NCBI RefSeq assembly: GCF_037042905.1
Contig: NC_087250.1
Span: 10,604,001 to 10,668,000, forward strand
DNA from: Lytechinus pictus
Taxonomy: Eukaryota
DNA: 64,000 nucleotides
Direction: 5' to 3'
The translations under genes were made by a program, and so were the position numbers. Position 1 is the stretch's first letter; each line of letters opens with the position of its first letter. The notes beneath the pieces are model-generated. The model was not told where the DNA came from and made no database searches. It worked only from the letters and a program-made list of their open reading frames with translations. This document shows positions 2,289-51,736 of this stretch, in pieces.

Positions 2289-2407
2289 TCCAAAGGGAAG
2301 ATAGCTCTGGGGAACCATGATTTAAGGTACGCCTACCATTGTTCTCTTCATTCATTTCTTTCACAAAATATTTAAATACTAGAGTTGCCAAAACTGTTGT
2401 ACATGTA

Positions 2408-2410
<3 letters not shown>
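2288..2410 (+). repeat. Fragment of the 408-bp tRNA-like unit, inside (TA)n
   Basis: Matches 45572-45697 (GATAGCTCTGGGGAACC...TACGCCTACCATTGTTCTCTTCAT...GAGTTGCCAAA); TA microsatellite on both sides. Confidence 0.85.
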
Positions 2411-10265: not shown

Positions 10266-10335
<70 letters not shown>

Positions 10336-10342
10336 GTGTAAA

Positions 10343-10554
10343 GTTTAAACGCAAGTCAAAAAATCAATCGCAAGTCCCAAATGCGCGCTGTTGATTGGTT
10401 TAAAATCAAGTTGCGCGTGATTGTTTTGAGTTGCGATCGATTGCAACTCTTTCTGCAACGGGCCCCAGGGCCCCGTCTTACAAAGAGTTACGATTGATCG
10501 AATCAATCGCAACTATGGACGGGCAGCAAAGTCAAAATATAAAATGCATCTTTA
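10343..10554 (-). repeat. Inverted local copy of 13821-14033, between (TA)n tracts
   Basis: Reverse complement of the two-MITE junction GACGGGGCC-CTG-GGGCCCGTTGC including diagnostic flanks. Confidence 0.85.
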
Positions 10555-15837: not shown

Positions 15838-16315
15838 CATATATATCTATGTATTGTGAAAGGAAAGGGTCTTGAGGAAGTAATTGACATCCCCCTAAAA
15901 TTAAATAAAGATTTGGTTAGGTGTGATAATGCTATTCGCTGAATCCGGGCATTATTCTCTGTTTGACCTTTCCACCCTTTCACACAATAAAACAAAAATC
16001 GTAATTTGAATGACGATTCCAGTTAAAAATAAGGCTAATGACGCTTTTTAGTACGTGTGAAACCAAACTAGAATCACGCTAATCACAATCACGAATTTGA
16101 ATTCTACTTCGGAGGTGAATTCCAGTTAAGTTTCACTCAAATTACGGTACGAATTATTATCCTAACAATGATGATTCAAGATTCACGTGTGAGAAGGCCC
16201 CTTGTGACACTAGCACCGTTCAGACTTGCGGGTGTTTTACAAAGATTTAATTATGACCCTGGATATATATATATATATATATATAAGTATATAAATATAT
16301 ATATATATATATACA

Positions 16316-16443
16316 TCCGACAAAGGAAATCATAATTGGTATAGTGTCGAAAAGCTGTCTATCTGACGGTCAATCGGTCGGGGTCGCCCTAGCCACTAAC
16401 CCGTCGCTGTGGTGTAGTGGTTAAGGCACCGGCGCTCAAAGCT
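16316..16443 (+). repeat. Truncated tRNA-like unit (upstream flank plus 5' half of the cloverleaf), inside (TA)n
   Basis: CCGACAAAGGAAAT...CCCTAGCCACTAACCC-GTCGCTGTGGTGTAGTGGTTAAGGCACCGGCGCTCAAAGCT. Confidence 0.85.
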
Positions 16444-43897: not shown

Positions 43898-45402
43898 CAG
43901 TGCGTCCAAGAAAAAAACGAAACCGAGATTTATCGATGATTTATCATAACTTAATCACAAATACAATAGACAAGTGACCTACCATTGTAAAGCTTAGAAT
44001 CTTCTCTTTCATCTGAAATTATTTAGATTATTCCTCATTCTCGCATGAGTGAGCAAGAACAATTTGAAGAAAGGATACAAAAACTCATTTGGCGGGGGTA
44101 TCTGAATTTCAAAAAGAAAATCACATTACTAAAAGTTCAATATCTGCTCTTTTATTTGATACCTTAATCACAGAAAATGGTCAAGAAGTAAAAAAGTTCT
44201 GTTCCCTCGAAACAATGCTTGTATTTCCATAATTTCATGAAATAATCGTGTTTTCACCGGTTTCCCACAGAAGCTATCGCACGCTTAAAGGCCCCTCACA
44301 CCTAACCGAATTGCCGTAAATATGCGTTGCGATGGCTGGCGAAAGGCATTTTTAAAGAAATCGCTTTCAATGGTAACTGATGGTAAATCATATTTACCCA
44401 TCGTGTTTGGGTTCGTAACCTTCTGCAATTATTCAAATTCGCGTGGAAATTTTGAACATGTTTAGAATTTCCTGACGAAATGAGAAATCGTTGGTCATCT
44501 GTTTGAATTCGCATCTCTTATTTAGTCTCCGGTAATCGTTAGTTTATCGTTCGTGTTTTATTGTCGCGCATAGTCCCTCACCGGGCCTTTGCCGAAGTGG
44601 ACCGATCTCGAAAGAACCCGTAACGAAGCAACACGATGACACAACGAACAAGATTGCCCGATCTATTCCCTCGTCTTCGTTTCTAATCGCACGCTATATC
44701 AAACCATTGCTCACTGTTCGTTCGTCTTATTGGGTTATATCAATCATTCGCTCGCCTTCGGCCGCAATTTTCTTAAAGAGGTGAGGCGAAAAATCGATAT
44801 CCTTCGCATGTCATATTTATCCTTAGCTTACCGTTTGTTGATAAAATTTGACAATAGTTGCTGATCGTTTGATTTGACTGAAATTTTATTTGAATTCGTT
44901 GAATTCGCGAGCATTTCGTTCATTTTTCCCATTCGTCACCCTTCGTCCGCCTACATTCGGTCAGGTGTGAGGGGGCTTTAACAAAAGACTTAATGCTTGG
45001 CTAATCGTCAACAAAACGGAGTGTCGAGTGACTCGGAACGCTAGCCTGTAAAACCTCTTCATTTTATGAAATTATTGAAATTCAAGTTTTATTTCAAATA
45101 AGCAGAACTTTGTTATTTCTTGACCATTTTCTGTAATTGAGGTATCAAATTAAATAACATATATTGAATTTTTTTAAAATGTAGTTTTCTTTTTGAAACC
45201 CTGATACAGCCCGCCAAGTGACTTTAAGTATCCCCTCTTCAAATTAATTTTGCTCACTCATGCGTGAATAAGAAATAATTAAGAAATTCAGATGATAAAG
45301 GAGATTCTAAGCTTTACAATGGTAGGTCACTTGTCTATTGTATTTGTGATTAAGTTATGATAAATCATCGATAAATCTCGGTTTCGTTTTTCCTGGGAAG
45401 CA

Positions 45403-45405
<3 letters not shown>
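43898..45405. mobile_element. Tc1/mariner-type long-TIR MITE (family of 18591-19410) with a nested insert
   Basis: TA-CAGTGCGTCC...GGGAAGCACTG-TA. Confidence 0.88.
44289..44978. mobile_element. PIF/Harbinger-like MITE
   Basis: TIR GCCCCTCACACCT(A/G)ACCGAAT; TAA TSD; absent from the 18591 copy. Confidence 0.8.
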
Positions 45406-45470
<65 letters not shown>

Positions 45471-45474
45471 TTAT

Positions 45475-45515
<41 letters not shown>

Positions 45516-45554
45516 AACACACACACATATATATATGATATATATATATATATA

Positions 45555-46058
45555 TTCGGCATCACCAATTTTTCCAAAAAGGGTAGATAGCTCTGGGGAA
45601 CCTTGATTTAAGCTACGCCTACCATTGTTCTCTTCATCCATTTCTTTCACACAATATTTAAATAAAAGAGTTGCCAAAGCTGTAGTACATGTATAACTTC
45701 ACACATTTGTATACTTTCTCCCATACGTACTGCATCAAAGCAATAGCTTTGATCCAGCTGAGGCATGGCGGCTTGTCATTGTTCAAAACCCACCTTCACC
45801 CGACAAAGGAAATTACAATTGGTATGGTGTCGAAAATCTGTCTATCTGACGGTCAATCGGATCGGGGTCGCCCTAGCCACTAACCCGTCTCTGTGGTCTA
45901 GTGGTTAAGGCACCGGCGTTCAAAGCTGGGGGCCCGGGTTCGATTCCCGGCAGAGACATTTTTTCGGCATCACCAATTTTTCCAAAAAGGGTAGATAGCT
46001 CTGGGGAACCTTGATTTAAGCTACGCCTACCATTGTTCTCTTCATCCATTTCTATCAC

Positions 46059-46064
<6 letters not shown>
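45555..46064 (+). repeat. About 1.25 head-to-tail copies of a 408-bp unit containing a tRNA-like gene
   Basis: 45555-45656 repeated at 45963-46064 (period 408); flanked by (TA)n. Confidence 0.9.
45887..45958 (+). tRNA. tRNA-like cloverleaf with TCA anticodon (possible opal suppressor, or repeat-borne pseudo-tRNA)
   Basis: Acceptor GTCTCTG/CAGAGAC (7 bp), D stem GTCT/AGGC, anticodon stem CCGGC/GCTGG with loop GTTCAAA, 4-nt variable loop, T stem CCGGG/CCCGG with TTCGATT loop; T6 follows at 45959-45964. Confidence 0.6.
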
Positions 46065-46100
<36 letters not shown>

Positions 46101-46123
<23 letters not shown>

Positions 46124-49100
46124 TCCCTTATTTCACGAAGTGACGGATGAGCGCGCAACTTTTAAAAAGTTAGTTTTGAGTAAATCGCGTTCAAAGGTTT
46201 AGACCTCAATCTCAACGTCTTCTACGTATGCAGGGTGAATAAATGTCATATCTTCGTATTGGGCATATTCTGGACAATATTCAAGTCCAATCATTTGCAT
46301 TTTACTTAAATATTTAAGAAGATAATGAGCTGTAAGCAGAACCATATTTTCGTGAAAAAAATATATTACGGTACGCGCTTAGATTTATTTTCACGAAGTG
46401 ACGGATAGTGCTCCGCGCGCATAACCGTCACTTCGTGAAAATCCGAAATTCAAGGACGCGCTTCAATTTTGTTTTTACGAAGTGACGGGAAGAAGCTTCG
46501 CCTTAGTCCCACGTATAGCCTTGTCGATGCAATTCGATAAATAGGGTCTAGATATACATAATTTCTTTATTTGCTATTGTAAGAAAAATCAATTCCAAAT
46601 GTCAGATCAATTAGGCCTACATTTACTTCTTTTAATAAAAAAAATCACTTTAAATACTTTGATTTCATTTTTCAAGTAATAACAGGAAGACCAATTAACA
46701 CACGTGTTATACTTATGCCTATTTCATTTCAATATTATCTTCATTTTTGAGAGATGAACTCTGATATAAGGAAAATTCCTAACAGGATATTAATAAAATG
46801 ACTACAAGAGATACAACACATTTCGTCTTTGTAATTCTATGTTTGAGAAAGGACTATTAAGCACTGACTCCGTTGGAGTAGATAATGCGACATTACAAAT
46901 ATTTGTCAGTTTACTAACCTCCCTACCCCCCTGAAAATATGAAATCCCAATGTAGTTTTTCTTAAATGTTGTTTATAATGTTAAAGGTATTCTCTGTTAA
47001 GGCCGAGTTAGCTATTCAAAATTATTCTTTGAGACTTAATTACCTCGAAAATGGTACAAAACTAAATGTGGAACTAACTTGTCAAAACGGCAACAAGAAT
47101 TGGTAAATTATGACTGATTGTCACCCCCCCCCAACAACAAAAAATGAGAAGAATAAGAATTTGTCAAAATAAAGCGAGCAAATTTCGAGTACAACCACTC
47201 TTGCTCCCTTTCTTTCTCTCTCTACTCAAGTTTTCCCTTATCAAAATAGTCATGTATTCTCTCCTGAACATCATATTAAAATACCTTTATCATGCAAAAT
47301 AAGAGTTATGACTTGTCATAAATCATTGAAAATACTAACTATATAAAATAAATTCCACAAAGTTAGCAATGTAAATAAATTTAGAAGAACTCTTTTAATT
47401 TTATAACATATGAAACCATAGCAGCAAGTGACAAATAGACAAGTAAAATATATTTTTTTTTCATGTCAATCATTATGATAATGGTTATGCTTAATAAATT
47501 CATTAAAATATCGATTCCATACAATGTTAACAATGGAAATATATTTTTAATTCAATAATATATCAGACCATAATCGCTAGTGACAAACACAACGACATTC
47601 ATAATTATTATAATGAATCTAATATTGCACTGTGAAATGCATAAGAAGTGAATTATCAGGTACACATTGACAGAATTTTGTCATTTTATATGCTTAACAC
47701 AATTAGCAATCCTAGTCTGTGAATGCCACATTTTGAAATACAGAATTGCTAACTAGTACCAAATTCAATAAGTTACTCTACATTCAAAACATTCCAATGT
47801 CAAATGAATAAATTTTCCATCACAAGAATACTGGAATATAATCAATGCTAGTGGTGCAGGAAAGTTGTATTCTCTATGTCTATTTGTATTGACATACACA
47901 TATTCAAGTAAAATGGTATATTTCTTTTCCATCAAAATAGAAGTAACATAATCACTATTACTTATTACATTCACTGCACTTTTTTTTAAGAATGTCATAA
48001 TTAAATCCTTCGACACAGTTGCCTTGAGAGTTATTTCATCTTTTTACACACTGTCAAGTACTAAAAAGTCTACCAAAGGAAACATGTAAACCTTTGAATA
48101 AACAAGTATCAACTAATGAAACTCAAACATGGAAATATAATTTTAAATCAATTATTTAACTTCATATCAAACAGGATCATTTATTAACAAATTTATAATC
48201 AAAATCCCGAACGACAGCGTCAAAAGCAACAAAAAAATGCAGTAATAAAAATACGAATGACTAAGTAGATTTGTATTTTTTCCATCATTCTCAAGTTATT
48301 GGCTAAATACACTCATCAATACATTTTCCAATCAAACACTTGTTTTTTTAATAGCAAATTATGGCCCGAGTCCAAAAACAGAAAGATACAGTAAAATACA
48401 CCTTAGTTCCAACTCTGAAAACTTTACAATAAATTGTCACGATTTTAGCAAGTAACATCTTTGAATTAGTGGGATCATGTAGAAATGAGTTAAATTCTTA
48501 CTACAAATATACAGAAAAAACATGTGCTGCAATCTATCTTTAACCTCAAGCTAATGTAAAATGTCTGCTAAAAATAATCATGTATTATTTCTTTCCTGAA
48601 TATCATTCATTAGAAAATTTTAGAATAAAATGATGACACATCAACTGTAAAACTGCATAAACCAGGTGTGAATAAAAGATAAAGAGCTGAAAATGCTGAA
48701 GAGTTTTAGGGGATGAAATTGAATGAGCTCTCAAACTATTGTACACAAAAAGGGATATCAAGCTGAAAATAAAAAACAAAAATAGCAGAAATCAGCTTAA
48801 GAATTCTCACACCCCTGATAGACCAAAAAAAATTACCTCATGGAAGGGGGGGGGGGTCTGTATTAACACATCTGGCTTTTGAAAATGAATTCATGAAAAC
48901 TTAATATGATTTTCACCCTTACTAGTAATATATCCTGTAACAATCGAGTTTCACAATGCATGTCAGTCTAAATTGTATGGTTATGTTATTATAAGAAAGT
49001 ATGAAGTATTAATACAATACATTTAAGAACAATAAAGATAGTAACATTCTGTTTTACAAAAATGTAGACATATGCAGGATTTTTTTTTTTAGATGGCACC

Positions 49101-51540
49101 AAGCAAAATGAAAACATGCCAAACAAAATGAATAAAGAAGGGTAATTCTTCTGCATCCATATGCGGACGATGTGTATTTATAAGCAATTTAAACATGTGG
49201 TAAGGATAGCAGATAAATGACTATTCTGAACTTTATATTTGACTGTATATATAAAACATATTTGAAGGAGTTCATAATTATATCACTGTAAGAGCACAGA
49301 CTAGTTCAAGCAACATGGTTTCTTTATATAATACACTGCTCTAAAACTAAACTTATGTTGAAGTCAAAATCACAAGAAAGTTAAAACTGGCATCAGTTAC
49401 CCAGCTGGAAACTAAAGAAAAAGTTAAGTGAGAGCCTTAAAAGGCCATGAGGCAGAGCCAATTCCTTCATACTTTTCACAAGTGTAGACAGAGTTTCATC
49501 ATCAGAATCGCAGTCAGAGTTCTCAGAAGATGTTTCTAGTTTGGTTACTTCAACAATTCCAAACCAGGGCACACTGTTAAAATCCAGTCACTACCAATTC
49601 AACTGTCATGTCACCAAATCAGATCACATCTGCGGTGCTCAGGGAATTATCAATGACCCACCTGACAAGCATGTTGGCTCCTGGATCCAACCTAAGTATG
49701 TAGAATGAAATAATATACAAATCAACTGTTTGTTTTCAAAGTTTTTTGTCAATCCAATATCGAATTTGTAGAATTGATAGCAGACTCAATATTTTAAATT
49801 GCCCTTTCCAAACAAAACCTGCCCAGTCAGTATGGTACTACAAGATTATTAAGAATATATTTTATATACTCTATTTACCACTGATATTTACAGCAAATAT
49901 TCCAATTAAATGTTTCCAATTTATAACAAAGTTTCAGCTGAAAATATGATTACATGTCAAATTTCAATGCTCTAGGGCAGTACACAATGCACTTGTCAAA
50001 ATGGAAATAATGTTCTTTTACAACTTAGAAATACACTTGTATCTGCTAAATGCTAACATATTCCCAAATTAATATTTTCTGGTTATTATAACTTTGAGTC
50101 AATATATTTTTATAACTACATTATTTACTAGATTTGCAATTGAAATTAATTTTGGTAATGAGTGCAAATGAATGGATGGCTGATACTGACAGGATGTCAT
50201 GTTGGATTATAACACTATGAAAATTCTCACCTTGAATTGTATTGTTAAATAGCGAGTGTACTGGTTCCAGGACTTCTCTCATTTGTTCTCTGAAACATTG
50301 CTTACTGTATATACTGCATCTGAAAAGAAATGAAAATATCTTCATCATGATTATGATCAGAACCGAGGTGCAGTTTATTTATGTAGATTCTTTCATTTTC
50401 TGTAAAATGTCATAGAGATAAGGGCGAGGGAGTGGCCAACAAACAACAAATTATAAAGCTCTATCTACATTAGATGTAGACTGACTCTTGACTCGAGATG
50501 ATTTATTTAAAACAGAAATCTCCAGTAATCCTCATTTTAACTAAGGACTCAACTTATTTGCACAAATGGGTTGGCCACTAACTTAACTGAATTAATTCAT
50601 GATCTCAGCATTCTCACTGTCATTTATAGAAATCCCCCCCATCCCCTGGGGAGGGGGGTATCTTTCCATTACATATGTTTGAAAGTACTACTGAATTTAG
50701 ATGATGAGTTAACTAACACTACAGTAAAGAAGACAATATAATCTATGTATTTATTTCAGATTTTTTTGGTGGAAATTTATTGCAAATACTAGGCACTTGT
50801 GAAGACAAGTTAGAACATAACGAGTTAACATTGGACTCTTTTGGAGTCCAATGGCAATGCAATTCGTGTAAATTAATCTAGATCTAGGCCCAAAATAATG
50901 CCCCTGTAGATTTTTTAACCAAATCCTCAGCCTTCATTAAATCTATTTAGTCTTGATTAATGTTGGGAAAATATTCTTACCCTTTTAGTTTGACTAAACT
51001 TAACATTCAAGTTGAATTGAGGACAAAAAAATGACACGCAATACTCCATTCAATTTTCACTGACACGAAAATGAATATGTGGGGCAATGTATGGAAAGAT
51101 TGGACGTTAATTTAAGGATTTTTGCGATCAGAGACGTTTAAAAGGGTTGAAATTACTCGAAATGACTTAAAGAGCTGCATTAAATTTATTTCCTTTCCTA
51201 CATTTACAAAAAAACTCACCATTTCATGGTCTTCGGCTGTTCCAGACTGTAAAAATTTGCCTTCCGTCACTTCGTGAAAAAACTCTTGAGTGATGAAGCG
51301 TATTCGTTTATTTTCACGAATTGACGGCTGCTTATCCGTCACTTCGTAAAAACAAGAAATCCTTAATCTGGGTATTTTCGTGTGTGCACTGTTGTCATAG
51401 CAACGTAATTAGAAATTTTTGTGATCTGAAACTTGTTGAGGTTCGAGATATGAATTAAAGATCTCCAAAAATGCAAAAAACTCAAAATTGAAAAAAATGC
51501 GATTTTTCTCGTATCCGTCACTTCGTGAAAACAGGGACGA
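46101..51540. mobile_element. 5.4-kb TIR element inserted in (TA)n, superfamily unassigned, no intact ORF
   Basis: TIR TCGTCCCT(TA/GT)TTTCACGAAGTGACGGAT; subterminal TTTCACGAAGTGACGG repeats in both orientations; absent from copy A. Confidence 0.85.
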
Positions 51541-51583: not shown

Positions 51584-51736
51584 TCCGACAAAGGAAATCA
51601 TAATCGGTATAGTGTCGAAAATCTGTCTTTCTGACGGTCAATCGGATCGGGGTCGCCCTAGCCACTAACCCGTCCCTGTGGTGTAGTGGTTAAGGCACCG
51701 GCGCTCAAAGCTGGGGGGGGGGGGGGCGGGTTCGAT
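51584..51736 (+). repeat. Truncated tRNA-like unit inside (TA)n (paralogous to 16316-16443)
   Basis: Upstream flank plus GTCCCTGTGGTGTAGTGGTTAAGGCACCGGCGCTCAAAGCT-Gn-CGGGTTCGAT. Confidence 0.85.

What the first reader, a model, noticed from the sequence alone, without database searches (positions are those of the whole stretch)
45555..46064. Complete cloverleaf with a TCA (opal) anticodon in a 408-bp unit found only inside (TA)n tracts
Seen: 45887-45958 folds as a full 72-nt cloverleaf with a perfect 7-bp acceptor stem, good A and B boxes, a 7-nt anticodon loop GTTCAAA (TCA at 45920-22, T33, A37) and a T6 run directly after. It lies in a head-to-tail 408-bp unit with conserved upstream as well as downstream flank. 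Other pieces of the unit (2288-2410, 16316-16443, 51584-51736) start and end at different points and are all bracketed by (TA)n; the two partial heads also keep TCA, though with C33, and are paralogues of one insertion. Known: SINEs begin at the tRNA head and usually lose the acceptor stem; tRNA-Sec has a long variable arm and 9/4 geometry, which this lacks; the D and T arms resemble tRNA-Glu. Inference: a tandemly arrayed or microsatellite-associated mobile tRNA-like gene that could be Pol III-transcribed and might read UGA. G32 is atypical, so function is uncertain.
Basis: partly seen in the sequence, partly recalled or inferred. Interest (0 to 1): 0.75.

Follow-up and report, generated by a model that had tools for sequence, protein, structure and literature searches.

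The report
tRNA-bearing satellite retroelement in (TA)n tracts
The stop-codon-reading "tRNA gene" is real in shape, but it is one module of a 408-base repeat present over a thousand times in this sea-urchin genome, which most likely spreads into (TA)n tracts by borrowing the copying machinery of Penelope-like jumping genes rather than serving as a working tRNA.

Summary
Bases 45887-45958 form a full cloverleaf with anticodon TCA (ARAGORN; Rfam tRNA 60.9 bits, as good as this genome's real tRNA-Glu genes at 59.4-59.5). It sits in a 408-bp unit present as 1.25 head-to-tail copies between (TA)n tracts.

The unit is not a private gene. The exact 36-nt TCA anticodon arm occurs 1,663 times in the 811-Mb genome, both in long 406-bp satellite arrays (at least 30 kb on contig C28, at least 17 kb on C2) and in dispersed short arrays.

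The dispersed arrays share one anatomy:
- The 3' end is fixed at one of two TTCACACA motifs (unit position about 104 or 155), next to (TA)n.
- The 5' ends are variable.
- The copies are tandem.
- In half of an unbiased sample, an inverted 5'-truncated arm is attached. Its outer end is always the other terminus (18 of 18).

A young autonomous Penelope-like element (PLE) in the same genome shows the same features, including short and long (+57 nt) 3' ends.

Best reading (about 0.6): a tRNA-Glu-derived, ribozyme-less, PLE-mobilised tandem retroelement that also forms satellite DNA. A working opal suppressor is unlikely (about 0.04) and was not testable here.

The parts
45406..45554 (.). 5' flanking compound microsatellite, (TA)n with an internal (CA)n run: the target tract.
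   Evidence: Read; tract list.
45555..45962 (+). One full 408-bp unit of the repeat family. It differs from the consensus of the dispersed copies at 2 positions.
45887..45958 (+). tRNA-like module (unit positions 333-404), derived from tRNA-Glu. A box TGGTCTAGTGG at 45894-45904, B box GGTTCGATTCC at 45937-45947, anticodon TCA at 45920-45922.
   Evidence: ARAGORN; Rfam 60.9 bits; comparison with tRNA-Glu-CTC genes. Box names are recalled consensus motifs read off the sequence.
45959..45964 (+). T6 run directly after the discriminator base: a Pol III terminator-like signal that spans the unit boundary.
   Evidence: Read. Present in nearly all of the 67 tRNA-region matches (57 cover the whole module) compared.
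45963..46066 (+). Second, partial unit (unit positions 1 to about 104), ending at the 'short' terminus ...TATCACACAATAT.
   Evidence: L001. The same terminus followed by (TA)n occurs 91 times in the genome.
46063..46120 (.). 3' (TA)n tract that abuts the short terminus.
2292..2410 (+). Older fragment of the unit (positions 24-142, 92% identical) between two (TA)n tracts.
16314..16443 (+). Older fragment (positions 243-373, 93% identical) with a partial tRNA head (C33, TCA) between (TA)n tracts.
51585..51736 (+). Paralogue of the 16314 fragment (positions 246 to about 395, 94% identical) with the same C33/TCA head and the same downstream flank.

Best explanation
The 408-bp unit is a non-coding, non-autonomous retroelement that also exists as a 406-bp satellite DNA. 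Each unit carries one tRNA-Glu-derived cloverleaf, whose remodelled anticodon arm happens to read TCA.

Inferred mechanism:
1. Multi-unit (or circular) transcripts of the repeat are copied by the reverse transcriptase and GIY-YIG nickase of a Penelope-like element (PLE).
2. The nicked (TA)n target primes on AU-rich sites just after either of two TTCACACA motifs in the RNA. This fixes the 3' end at unit position about 104 or about 155.
3. Reverse transcription runs for a variable distance through one or more units, which gives the 5' truncation and the tandem copies.
4. In about half of events the second target strand primes a second cDNA. This gives an inverted 5'-truncated arm whose outer end is the other terminus.

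The tRNA module is most likely kept because it serves the element, as a Pol III/TFIIIC-binding promoter or as a structured processing signal. It is not a decoding tRNA.

Shown:
- The cloverleaf, the copy numbers and the satellite arrays.
- The insertion anatomy.
- The same anatomy in an autonomous PLE of this genome.
- The absence of a hammerhead ribozyme.

Inferred:
- The RNA intermediate.
- The identity of the enzyme donor.
- The role of the tRNA module.
For: (1) High-copy selfish repeat.
- 1,429 first-look candidates; 157 matches at 90-100% identity.
- 1,663 exact TCA anticodon arms.
- Long arrays: C28 995.4-1026 kb and beyond, continuous for at least 30 kb, with 406-bp monomers about 95% identical to the window unit; C2 8.866-8.884 Mb.

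(2) Fixed 3' end, variable 5' end.
- In 24 distinct loci taken by similarity, 23 arrays end at unit position about 104 or 141-159 next to (TA)n or (CA)n(TA)n. Their 5' starts are scattered over the unit.
- There are 91 exact short-terminus + (TA)n junctions, spread over contigs C1-C21.

(3) Length-unbiased sample of 20 of those 91 junctions.
- 10 are simple 5'-truncated copies, from 66 bp to about 1.6 units.
- 10 carry an inverted 5'-truncated arm.
- In 10 of 10, the inverted arm's outer end lies at position 149-159 and never at 104.
- With the 8 head-to-head composites of the first sample, 18 of 18 pair one short with one long terminus.

(4) An autonomous PLE in the same genome (RVT_1 plus C-terminal GIY-YIG, CX4CxxC linker, reading frame of at least 598 aa; 7 of the 10 fetched loci hold copies 97-99.7% identical to the reference).
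- It ends in (TA)n and has a 565-bp 3' tandem.
- It forms head-to-head 5'-truncated arms (L052, L053/L054).
- It has two alternative 3' ends: short ...CTCATTAT|(AT)n (3 copies), and long, +57 nt, ending ...CATCACAC|TATA (5 copies, one of them from the 82%-identical relative L049).
- One arm of each kind is found in the single head-to-head locus seen whole.

(5) Published description.
- Craig et al. 2021 (PMC8557442, passages read) describe exactly this set for PLEs: strong 5' truncation, partial tandems, an adjacent inverted 5'-truncated copy, a 30-40-bp tail at one end, and a (TA)n insertion bias that hides target-site duplications.

(6) Subfamily difference.
- The dispersed subfamily has TTCACACA at both termini. 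The C28 satellite subfamily has neither (TTT---ACAATAT and CTTTACACA).

(7) Other organisms.
- Contigs of a run of a second organism label show the same two termini followed by (TA)n.
- The tandem junction is seen in all 4 runs laid.
Against: - No autonomous element that shares sequence with the unit was found. BLAST of the unit against 10 PLE loci gave only 11-18-nt matches.
- The 3'-end alignment is marginal: Smith-Waterman 31, against shuffles at 22 +/- 4.3; 42 of 1000 shuffles reach it.
- No other abundant family ends in R-TTCACAC...(TA)n: 15 hits against 6 in the control.
- No RNA intermediate is shown. The only certain RNA run (a marine metatranscriptome) has 3 low-depth contigs, which could be DNA carry-over.
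- No target-site duplication can be read, so target-primed reverse transcription is inferred from anatomy only.
- Units within one insertion are only slightly more alike than units from different loci (median 4 versus 6 differences). This neither supports nor excludes rolling-circle copying of one monomer.
- The head-to-head pairing in the autonomous PLE rests on one complete locus.
- Only 44 of several hundred dispersed loci were examined.
Confidence: 0.6

Rival explanations
1. DNA-level spread of a satellite. (TA)n tracts break (cruciform or fragile sites) and are repaired by copying from other (TA)n-flanked copies of the satellite (synthesis-dependent strand annealing or break-induced replication), or by capture of extrachromosomal satellite DNA. 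No reverse transcriptase is involved.
For: - Long satellite arrays exist that could feed such a process.
- Junctions show 1-4 nt of TA-type microhomology, and no target-site duplication is visible.
- Copying inward from a shared (TA)n would also give one fixed and one variable end.
- Several unrelated repeats also abut (TA)n in these loci.
Against: - Random choice of donors should give homotypic as well as heterotypic end pairs. Instead, 18 of 18 head-to-head composites pair a short with a long terminus.
- The same short/long pairing and tail are seen in a protein-coding PLE, which moves through RNA (PMC8557442).
- Sequence on the far side of donor (TA)n tracts is not co-amplified with the unit.
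- The dispersed copies form their own subfamily with TTCACACA at both termini, distinct from the satellite arrays.
Confidence: 0.17
2. An ordinary tRNA-derived SINE moved by a LINE. The tandem copies and the satellite arrays would have arisen later by unequal crossing-over.
For: - A tRNA-derived head with intact A and B boxes.
- 5' truncation and 5' inversions also occur with LINE machinery (twin priming; recalled).
- SINE-derived satellites are known (PMC10702118 and PMC11121367; titles and abstract starts seen).
Against: - Copies do not start at the tRNA head: 5' starts are scattered and no cluster at unit position 333 stands out (read by eye, not tabulated).
- Multi-unit insertions include about 170 nt from upstream of the tRNA.
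- A T6 terminator directly follows the tRNA, so a Pol III transcript would lack the element's 3' end.
- There is no poly(A) or LINE-like tail, and no target-site duplication.
- The heterotypic short/long termini are not a LINE feature.
- No LINE partner was sought systematically.
Confidence: 0.07
3. A working opal-suppressor (UGA-reading) tRNA gene family, transcribed by Pol III, processed and charged. It is compatible with the repeat also being mobile.
For: - The covariance-model score equals that of genuine tRNA-Glu genes (60.9 versus 59.4-59.5 bits).
- Acceptor stem is perfect 7/7; T33, A37, T54-T55-C56, A and B boxes and T6 are all present.
- The TCA arm is identical in 1,663 copies and unchanged in contigs of 4 runs from 3 organism labels and one marine metatranscriptome.
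- The tRNA part holds 0 of the 12 positions at which the C28-satellite and dispersed consensus sequences differ, and 1 of 22 differences between the old-copy consensus and the window unit, though it makes up 17.6% of the unit.
- The two recurrent stem variants (A to G) keep pairing as G-U.
Against: - The uniformity is what a recent burst of a repeat gives; the whole unit is 97-99% identical between copies.
- Diverged relatives carry TCC (L031, L038) or C33 (window 16314 and 51585), so the anticodon loop has drifted.
- G32 is atypical.
- A Glu-derived body with a UCA anticodon and a replaced acceptor stem lacks the usual identity elements (established knowledge, not tested).
- More than a thousand active suppressor genes should be harmful.
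- The conservation excess is not significant taken alone (P about 0.1 and 0.08).
- No small-RNA data could be examined.
Confidence: 0.04
4. A satellite carried inside a Helitron or Helentron (rolling-circle DNA transposon), which inserts at AT or TT sites.
For: - Helentron-type elements carry short tandem arrays and microsatellites (DINE-1 paper PMC4067079; title and abstract start seen).
- The element is associated with AT dinucleotides.
Against: - The array ends read ...TTCACACA(A/T)T, not 5'-TC...CTRR-3' with a subterminal hairpin (motif recalled; ends read).
- No shared left or right arm sequence flanks the arrays. The flanks are unrelated from locus to locus, or belong to other repeats.
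- A variable 5' end combined with an inverted partner is not a Helitron pattern.
Confidence: 0.03

Closest known systems
Insertion units of endonuclease-positive Penelope-like elements (Naiad, Neptune and related; Craig, Yushenova, Rodriguez and Arkhipova 2021, PMC8557442, passages read)
   Same: - Strong 5' truncation.
- Head-to-tail partial tandems.
- An inverted 5'-truncated copy at the 5' side.
- An extra tail at only one end.
- Insertion bias for (TA)n that hides target-site duplications.
- No canonical hammerhead ribozyme (as in Naiads).
All of these were seen here in the 408-bp family and in this genome's own PLE.
   Different: - The 408-bp unit encodes no protein.
- It shares no clear sequence with the PLE copies examined.
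- It carries a full tRNA-like cloverleaf.
- It also builds arrays tens of kilobases long.
- The tail is 51 nt here; the paper gives 30-40 bp.
Metazoan non-LTR retrozymes (tandem 150-300-bp repeats with type I hammerhead ribozymes, thought to be mobilised by PLEs; review PMC7761336, passages read; preprint 10.64898/2026.07.22.740005, abstract and passages read)
   Same: - Non-coding tandem repeats of a few hundred bp.
- Dispersed monomers and short multimers, together with long arrays.
- PLEs are the suspected mobilising machinery.
- Can be regarded as a kind of SINE.
   Different: - The defining hammerhead ribozyme is absent: no Rfam match up to E = 10, and no CUGANGA core on either strand.
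- A tRNA-like module stands in the unit instead.
- Circular RNA was not tested.
- No similarity to a PLE pseudo-LTR was found.
SINE-derived or tRNA-derived satellite DNAs (for example SINE-derived satellites in scaled reptiles, PMC10702118; PcH-Sat from a Nin-SINE, PMC11121367; only titles and abstract starts seen)
   Same: - A tRNA-derived Pol III-type module inside a tandemly repeated monomer.
- Long arrays and dispersed copies coexist.
   Different: - Here the tRNA part is not decayed; it scores like a real tRNA.
- The monomer contains about 330 nt that is not tRNA-derived.
- The dispersed copies have PLE-type rather than LINE-type anatomy.
'Possible suppressor' or false SeC tRNA predictions (anticodon TCA) in standard-code eukaryote genomes, usually repeat-derived (recalled; compare earlier scan note e1-671750)
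   Same: - Normal-sized cloverleaf with a TCA anticodon.
- Lacks tRNA-Sec geometry.
- Repeat-associated.
   Different: - Exceptionally high score.
- More than 1,600 identical copies.
- Embedded in a defined 408-bp mobile unit.
Schistosoma Sm-alpha and newt satellite 2 (SINE-like or satellite repeats with Pol III-type promoter elements plus a hammerhead ribozyme; recalled, not read here)
   Same: Tandem or dispersed short repeats that combine a small-RNA-type promoter with a structured RNA module.
   Different: Those carry a ribozyme. This unit carries a complete tRNA fold and no ribozyme.

Membership tests
Functional tRNA / tRNA-Sec / opal suppressor | Cloverleaf that passes a tRNA covariance model | tested here: met
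   RF00005, 60.9 bits, full length 1-71. Real tRNA-Glu-CTC genes of this genome score 59.4-59.5.
Functional tRNA / tRNA-Sec / opal suppressor | tRNA-Sec geometry (9/4 or 8/5 acceptor/T, long variable arm) | tested here: not met
   7-bp acceptor stem, 5-bp T stem and 4-nt variable loop in the Rfam alignment. ARAGORN's 'SeC' label follows the anticodon only.
Functional tRNA / tRNA-Sec / opal suppressor | Processed, CCA-added, aminoacylated RNA that decodes UGA | not testable with these tools
   Only assembled contigs of public runs were available, which show no ends or small RNAs.
Functional tRNA / tRNA-Sec / opal suppressor | Anticodon kept under selection across relatives | tested here: inconclusive
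   - TCA is found in 1,663 exact copies.
- No variant at the anticodon in the 4 runs laid.
- Diverged copies carry TCC (L031, L038) or C33.
- The copies are too young to show covariation.
LINE-dependent tRNA-derived SINE | tRNA-derived head with internal A and B boxes | tested here: met
   The D and T arms match tRNA-Glu-CTC genes: 81-83% identity over 57-59 nt.
LINE-dependent tRNA-derived SINE | Element begins at the tRNA 5' end (Pol III start) | tested here: not met
   5' starts are scattered over the unit. Multi-unit copies include unit positions 160-332, upstream of the tRNA.
LINE-dependent tRNA-derived SINE | LINE-related 3' tail or poly(A), flanked by target-site duplications | tested here: not met
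   The termini are TTCACACA + (TA)n. No target-site duplication is seen at the loci whose 5' flank lacks (TA)n: L022, L010, L061. A LINE partner was not searched for.
PLE-type insertion unit (PLE-dependent non-autonomous element) | 5' truncation with head-to-tail partial tandems | tested here: met
   Arrays of 0.15 to 4.25 units with variable 5' starts.
PLE-type insertion unit (PLE-dependent non-autonomous element) | Adjacent inverted 5'-truncated copy | tested here: met
   10 of 20 loci in the junction-based sample, and at least 8 of 24 in the similarity-based sample.
PLE-type insertion unit (PLE-dependent non-autonomous element) | Short extension (tail) at only one end of the unit | tested here: met
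   18 of 18 head-to-head composites pair a terminus at about 104 with one at 141-159, about 51 nt longer. The same genome's autonomous PLE has short and +57-nt ends.
PLE-type insertion unit (PLE-dependent non-autonomous element) | Microsatellite, here (TA)n, insertion bias | tested here: met
   - 23 of 24 arrays in the similarity-based sample abut (TA)n at the 3' end.
- 91 exact terminus + (TA)n junctions.
- (TA)>=8 tracts cover 0.7% of the window.
PLE-type insertion unit (PLE-dependent non-autonomous element) | Sequence shared with an autonomous PLE (3' end or pseudo-LTR) | tested here: inconclusive
   - No BLAST match longer than 18 nt to 10 PLE loci.
- 3'-end alignment is marginal: 42 of 1000 shuffles score as well.
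- Only 150 of 468 GIY-YIG candidates were scored, and other PLE families were not examined.
Metazoan non-LTR retrozyme | Type I hammerhead ribozyme in every repeat | tested here: not met
   No ribozyme family found in the Rfam scan up to E = 10 over 45540-46075. No CTGANGA on either strand of a unit dimer.
Metazoan non-LTR retrozyme | Expressed as circular RNA | not testable with these tools
   No raw RNA reads were available.
Satellite DNA | Long uninterrupted head-to-tail arrays of one monomer | tested here: met
   - C28: at least 30 kb continuous (996-1026 kb), plus 6-7-kb blocks at 770 and 950 kb. Period 406 bp; interrupted only by transposon insertions.
- C2: 8.866-8.884 Mb, period 406 bp.
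Helitron / Helentron | 5'-TC ... CTRR-3' termini with a 3' hairpin; constant arms around the tandem core | tested here: not met
   The ends and flanks read show neither. The motif definition is recalled.

The most novel reading that the evidence does not exclude
The family is a ribozyme-less counterpart of animal retrozymes. In it, a host-type tRNA fold replaces the hammerhead ribozyme.
- TFIIIC/Pol III and the tRNA-processing enzymes RNase P and RNase Z would act on the cloverleaf to transcribe tandem transcripts and cut them into unit-length RNAs.
- A Penelope-like reverse transcriptase would then copy these RNAs into (TA)n tracts.
- The released 72-nt RNA, made from more than 1,600 loci, would be an abundant UCA-anticodon tRNA-like molecule. 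If charged at all, it would give low-level UGA read-through.

Hints, none of them decisive:
- The module scores as well as real tRNAs.
- It carries 0 of 12 differences between the satellite and dispersed consensus sequences, and 1 of 22 between the old-copy consensus and the window unit.
- In a hand tally, 10 of 46 arms longer than 110 nt have their 5' end within 50 nt downstream of the tRNA (12% expected).
Probability: 0.12. Interest if true: 0.8.

Novelty: new variant of a known kind. Interest (0 to 1): 0.5.

Why it matters
PLEs are the least understood major class of retrotransposons. Nobody knows how they make tandem and inverted copies, the one-sided tail, or their microsatellite bias.

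This 408-bp, high-copy, very young passenger family offers hundreds of small, fully readable insertion events with a strict rule: one short and one long terminus per head-to-head pair. That makes the integration mechanism testable by sequence census and by a simple mobilisation assay.

The family also links three things that are usually treated apart: a tRNA-derived Pol III module, a satellite DNA, and PLE-type retrotransposition. It shows that retrozyme-like tandem passengers need not carry a ribozyme.

For genome annotation, it explains why tRNA finders will report well over a thousand high-scoring 'SeC/suppressor' tRNA genes in this and related sea urchins. These should not be read as a change of genetic code.

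Tried and rejected
- Hammerhead or other ribozyme in the unit: none. The Rfam scan of three PLE loci also found none, so this is no discriminator.
- tRNA-Sec: rejected on geometry.
- Partner search by shared terminus (pattern for R-TTCACAC...(TA)n): 15 hits against 6 in the control, so no other abundant family. Bases T or C before the motif were not tested.
- Unit against PLE loci by BLAST: only 11-18-nt matches. Smith-Waterman on the 3' ends was marginal; a first attempt failed through a slicing error in my script.
- Rolling-circle test: within-insertion unit pairs (n=13) differ by a median of 4, between-locus pairs (n=649) by 6. Not decisive.
- Expression:
  - Public runs were available only as contigs.
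  - Two runs guessed to be RNA show very uneven summed depth over the unit, but they may be DNA.
  - The one certain RNA run has 3 contigs at depth about 4, one of which crosses the T6 run into the next unit.
  - None of this shows transcription.
- Target-site duplications: looked for at 5' junctions outside (TA)n (L022, L010, L061). None seen.
- 5'-end clustering at the tRNA start (unit position 333): no cluster stands out by eye (not tabulated).
- Earlier scan notes: nothing for this place or this sequence.
- Literature searches: none of the titles and abstract starts listed describes a tRNA-bearing PLE-dependent tandem element or this sea-urchin satellite. Subscription journals and Repbase/Dfam entries were not searchable, so it may already be catalogued there.
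- Larger samples of junction loci could not be fetched.
Full report
**What is in the window**

ARAGORN finds a single tRNA in the 64-kb window, at 45887-45958 on the plus strand, with anticodon tca. Rfam's tRNA model matches the same 72 nt from first to last model position at 60.9 bits.

The alignment shows these features:
- A 7/7 acceptor stem, a four-pair D stem, the anticodon stem CCGGC/GCTGG, and the loop GTTCAAA (G32, T33, TCA, A37).
- A 4-nt variable loop and a canonical T arm.
- A T6 run directly after the discriminator base.

The stretch 45550-45664 recurs at 45958-46072 (96% identity, spacing 408). The locus is therefore 1.25 head-to-tail copies of a 408-bp unit, lying between a 149-bp (TA)n/(CA)n tract and a 58-bp (TA)n tract.

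Three older pieces of the unit (92-94% identical) lie at 2292-2410, 16314-16443 and 51585-51717, each against (TA)n. The last two are paralogues and read C33 + TCA.

**How common it is**

The window lies in an 811-Mb, 368-contig assembly. Earlier notes of this scan call it a sea urchin; I did not check that independently.
- The unit has 1,429 first-look candidates and 157 listed matches at 90-100% identity.
- The exact 36-nt anticodon arm with TCA occurs 1,663 times, against 0 for the reversed control.
- Among 67 tRNA-region matches (57 covering the whole module) in 30 best-hit loci, nearly all are identical to the window's copy. The two recurrent variants are A-to-G changes that keep the acceptor pairs as G-U.

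**It is also a satellite**

A pattern search for the D and T arms with a different base after the T stem picked up hits on contig C28 at multiples of 1,218 bp. Sixty kilobases fetched from C28 show head-to-tail 406-bp monomers about 95% identical to the window unit.
- They are continuous from 995.4 kb to beyond 1,026 kb.
- Further blocks lie at about 770 kb and 950 kb.
- The arrays are interrupted only by transposon insertions with their own inverted ends.
- A second array with a 406-bp period lies on C2 at 8.866-8.884 Mb.

So 'found only inside (TA)n' does not hold genome-wide.

**Origin of the tRNA module**

The same pattern search found this genome's tRNA-Glu-CTC genes, in clusters on C16 and C17.
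- The family's internal 57-59 nt are 81-83% identical to them.
- They share the D loop, the 5' half of the anticodon stem (CGGCG), the xGGC variable loop and the whole T arm.
- The acceptor stem is entirely different but still perfectly paired.
- One extra base in the D region shifts the anticodon arm by one position.
- Diverged family members carry GTTCCAA (TCC; L031, L038) or GCTCAAA (C33; window fragments).

TCA is therefore the state of the currently successful subfamily, not an ancient constant. The module scores as well as the real Glu genes (60.9 versus 59.4-59.5 bits), which is unusual for a repeat-borne tRNA relic.

Consensus differences avoid the tRNA module, which makes up 17.6% of the unit. 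It holds 0 of the 12 positions where the dispersed and C28 consensus sequences differ. It holds 1 of the 22 positions where the consensus of five older copies differs from the window unit. This is suggestive but not significant (P about 0.1 and 0.08).

**Anatomy of the dispersed copies**

I used two samples.
- **Sample 1** is the 30 loci returned. Six overlap others, which leaves 24 distinct loci. L003 and L008 share both flanks.
- **Sample 2** is unbiased for length. Of the 91 exact 'short terminus + (TA)n' junctions found on contigs C1-C21, I took the first 24 in list order. I dropped 4 that were already's list, which leaves 20 loci.

Findings:
1. **The 3' end is fixed.**
   - It lies just after one of two TTCACACA motifs. 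The short form is ...TTTCACAC(A)ATAT at unit position about 104. The long form is ...AACTTCACACA(TTT) at about 151-159, and rarely at 141-149.
   - Either form is followed by (TA)n or (CA)n(TA)n.
   - BLAST ends at '110' or '159' include chance extension into the tract.
   - In sample 1, 23 of 24 arrays end this way.
2. **The 5' end is variable.** Starts are scattered over the unit, and insertions run from 66 bp to 4.25 units.
3. **The 5' flank is usually (TA)n, but not always.** It is absent at L004, L010, L013 and L022 in sample 1, and at L060, L061, L073 and L074 in sample 2.
4. **Half of the insertions carry an inverted arm.**
   - In sample 2, 10 of 20 insertions carry an inverted, independently 5'-truncated arm on the 5' side.
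   - This count includes L073, whose partner L010 is separated from it by a nested transposon, and the complex L064.
   - In 10 of 10, the inverted arm's outer end lies at 149-159.
5. **Head-to-head composites always pair unlike ends.** In sample 1, all 8 head-to-head composites with both outer ends preserved pair one short and one long terminus (L005, L006, L007, L009, L012, L015, L023, L024). Together with sample 2, that is 18 of 18 heterotypic pairs.
   - I left out L029, where two arms face each other tail to tail, both long; this is a different arrangement.
   - I also left out L016, whose right end is lost.
6. **No target-site duplication is visible** where the 5' flank is not (TA)n.
7. 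**The satellite subfamily lacks both terminal motifs.** The C28 monomers read TTT---ACAATAT and CTTTACACA at these sites.
8. **The termini recur in another organism.** Contigs of a run from a second organism label end at the same two places followed by (TA)n. The unit-to-unit junction is present in all four runs laid.

**The matching machinery**

This combination is the published hallmark of endonuclease-positive PLEs. Passages of Craig et al. 2021 (PMC8557442) describe:
- An inverted 5'-truncated copy adjacent at the 5' end.
- A 30-40-bp tail at one end of the unit.
- A (TA)n bias, in Naiads, strong enough to hide target-site duplications. The CX2-5CxxC linker is proposed to mediate such a bias in Neptune-type elements.

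A search of this genome with Pfam GIY-YIG gave 16 matches.
- The best loci encode a reverse transcriptase followed by a C-terminal GIY-YIG domain: RVT_1 at residues 80-270 and GIY-YIG at 501-590.
- A CEAKKCCIC linker precedes the nuclease domain.
- Seven of the ten fetched loci hold copies 97-99.7% identical to the L057 reference; L049 is an 82% relative and L051 shows no DNA match. The element is young.
- It has a 565-bp tandem in its 3' part and ends in (TA)n.
- It forms head-to-head 5'-truncated arms (L052, L053/L054).
- It has two alternative 3' ends. The short end is ...CTCATTAT|(AT)n (L053 minus arm, L057, L058). The long end has 57 more nucleotides and finishes ...CATCACAC|TATA (L049, L052, L054, L055, L056).
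- In the one head-to-head locus seen whole (L053/L054), one arm is short and the other long.

The 408-bp family thus copies the behaviour of a bona fide retroelement of the same genome down to the one-sided tail. Both long ends finish in CACAC followed by TATA.

**Mechanism proposed**

This section is inferred.
1. The PLE nickase opens a (TA)n tract.
2. The 3' end of the tract anneals to an AU-rich site just after a TTCACACA motif in a multi-unit or circular transcript of the repeat.
3. Reverse transcription proceeds towards the RNA 5' end for a variable distance.
4. In about half of events, the other strand of the palindromic target primes a second cDNA from the other terminus.
5. The two cDNAs are joined head to head.

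A T6 run directly follows the tRNA, and insertions include sequence upstream of it. The template therefore cannot be a normally terminated Pol III transcript of the tRNA module. It must be a read-through or Pol II transcript, or a circle. I could not decide between a linear multimer and a rolling circle.

The unit has no hammerhead ribozyme, so it is not a retrozyme by definition, though it works like one. The role of the tRNA fold is open. It could be a Pol III/TFIIIC site, an RNase P/Z cutting signal or an RT stop. In a hand tally, 10 of 46 arms longer than 110 nt have their 5' end within 50 nt downstream of the tRNA (12% expected).

**What weakens the reading**
- No autonomous element shares sequence with the unit.
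- No RNA intermediate is shown. The runs were contigs only, and the one certain RNA run has three low-depth contigs.
- Only 44 dispersed loci were read.
- The PLE's heterotypic pairing rests on one locus.
- A DNA-level process at fragile (TA)n tracts remains possible. However, it does not explain the strict pairing of short and long termini.

**The suppressor idea**

Nothing excludes transcription of the 72-nt RNA. Several points make a working opal suppressor improbable:
- The module rides on a selfish repeat.
- Its uniformity is that of the whole unit.
- Relatives have other anticodon loops.
- G32 is atypical.
- A Glu-type body with a new acceptor stem and a UCA anticodon lacks the usual identity elements (established knowledge, not tested).

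The question needs tRNA-seq and a read-through reporter.

**Novelty**
- PLE insertion anatomy, retrozymes and SINE-derived satellites are all known.
- A ribozyme-less, tRNA-bearing, satellite-forming passenger with PLE anatomy was not described in any title or abstract start listed by my seven literature searches. Repbase, Dfam and subscription journals could not be searched.
- I rate it a new variant of a known kind, of moderate interest. Its main value is as a compact natural system for working out how PLEs integrate, and as a warning for tRNA annotation in sea urchins.

Noticed in passing
L049-L058 (for example L057 = G000:C19:10761169-10764438; L053/L054 = C8:37399303-37403523): A young autonomous Penelope-like element (RT plus C-terminal GIY-YIG; 7 of 10 fetched loci 97-99.7% identical to the reference). 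It has a 565-bp 3' tandem, (TA)n at its ends, head-to-head arms, and two alternative 3' ends that differ by a 57-nt tail.
   Followed up: partly
window 45366-45405; also the flanks of L061, L064 and L068: The left side of the (TA)n tract is the end of another repeat that reads, outward from the TA, CAGTGC(T/G)TCCCA...AAACGA.ACCGAGATTTATCGATGA. This looks like a Tc1/mariner-type inverted-repeat terminus at a TA target (resemblance recalled). The same end neighbours 408-bp arrays in at least three other loci.
   Followed up: no
window 46121-46150 and, inverted, 51516-51540: A repeat end CGTCCCT..TTTCACGAAGTGACGG abuts (TA)n in both places. It is a further family that uses or borders (TA)n tracts.
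   Followed up: no
L030 right flank; L055 and L058 right flanks; L065 left flank: The same sequence (TTCGAGATCAAGTGTATGGAGAGGGCCGTAGCAAGG...) follows the (TA)n tract next to a 408-bp array and next to two copies of the autonomous PLE. (TA)n tracts therefore seem to be shared nests for several element families.
   Followed up: no
window 10333-10347: Directly after a 66-bp (TA)n tract stands AATGTGTAAAGTT. This matches the reverse complement of the family's long terminus at 13 of 14 bases, and may be a tiny inverted arm left by an insertion attempt.
   Followed up: no
L010 + L073 (G000:C3:59743290-59747073): One head-to-head composite of the family is split by a 2.2-kb element with inverted ends CATGGACCTATGAAGAG... 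and an apparent 7-bp duplication: a nested DNA-transposon insertion.
   Followed up: no
L044 7414 / L048 9415 (G000:C28, about 957.4-995.4 kb), and L043 6048-9902: The long satellite array on C28 is interrupted by a roughly 38-kb insert with inverted ends ACAGTAAATCTTTTCAAAATGAA..., and by a roughly 3.9-kb insert with ends CACGTATGTTCA....
   Followed up: no
G000:C17:25857113-25881054 and C16:19.56-20.10 Mb: Dense clusters of identical tRNA-Glu-CTC genes: at least 18 copies within 24 kb on C17.
   Followed up: no
window 45555-45962, as laid: In two runs guessed to be RNA, the summed contig depth varies 10- to 50-fold along the unit. Peaks lie over unit positions about 29-84, 197-238 and the tRNA; a trough lies over about 99-182. 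In the DNA run of another organism the depth varies about 6-fold (96-561). This is unexplained. It could reflect expression, related families, or library type.
   Followed up: no
samples: 5' starts of arms longer than 110 nt fall within unit positions 1-50 (just downstream of the tRNA and T6) in 10 of 46 cases, against 12% expected. This is a weak trend that might reflect an RNA 5' end or an RT stop at the tRNA.
   Followed up: partly
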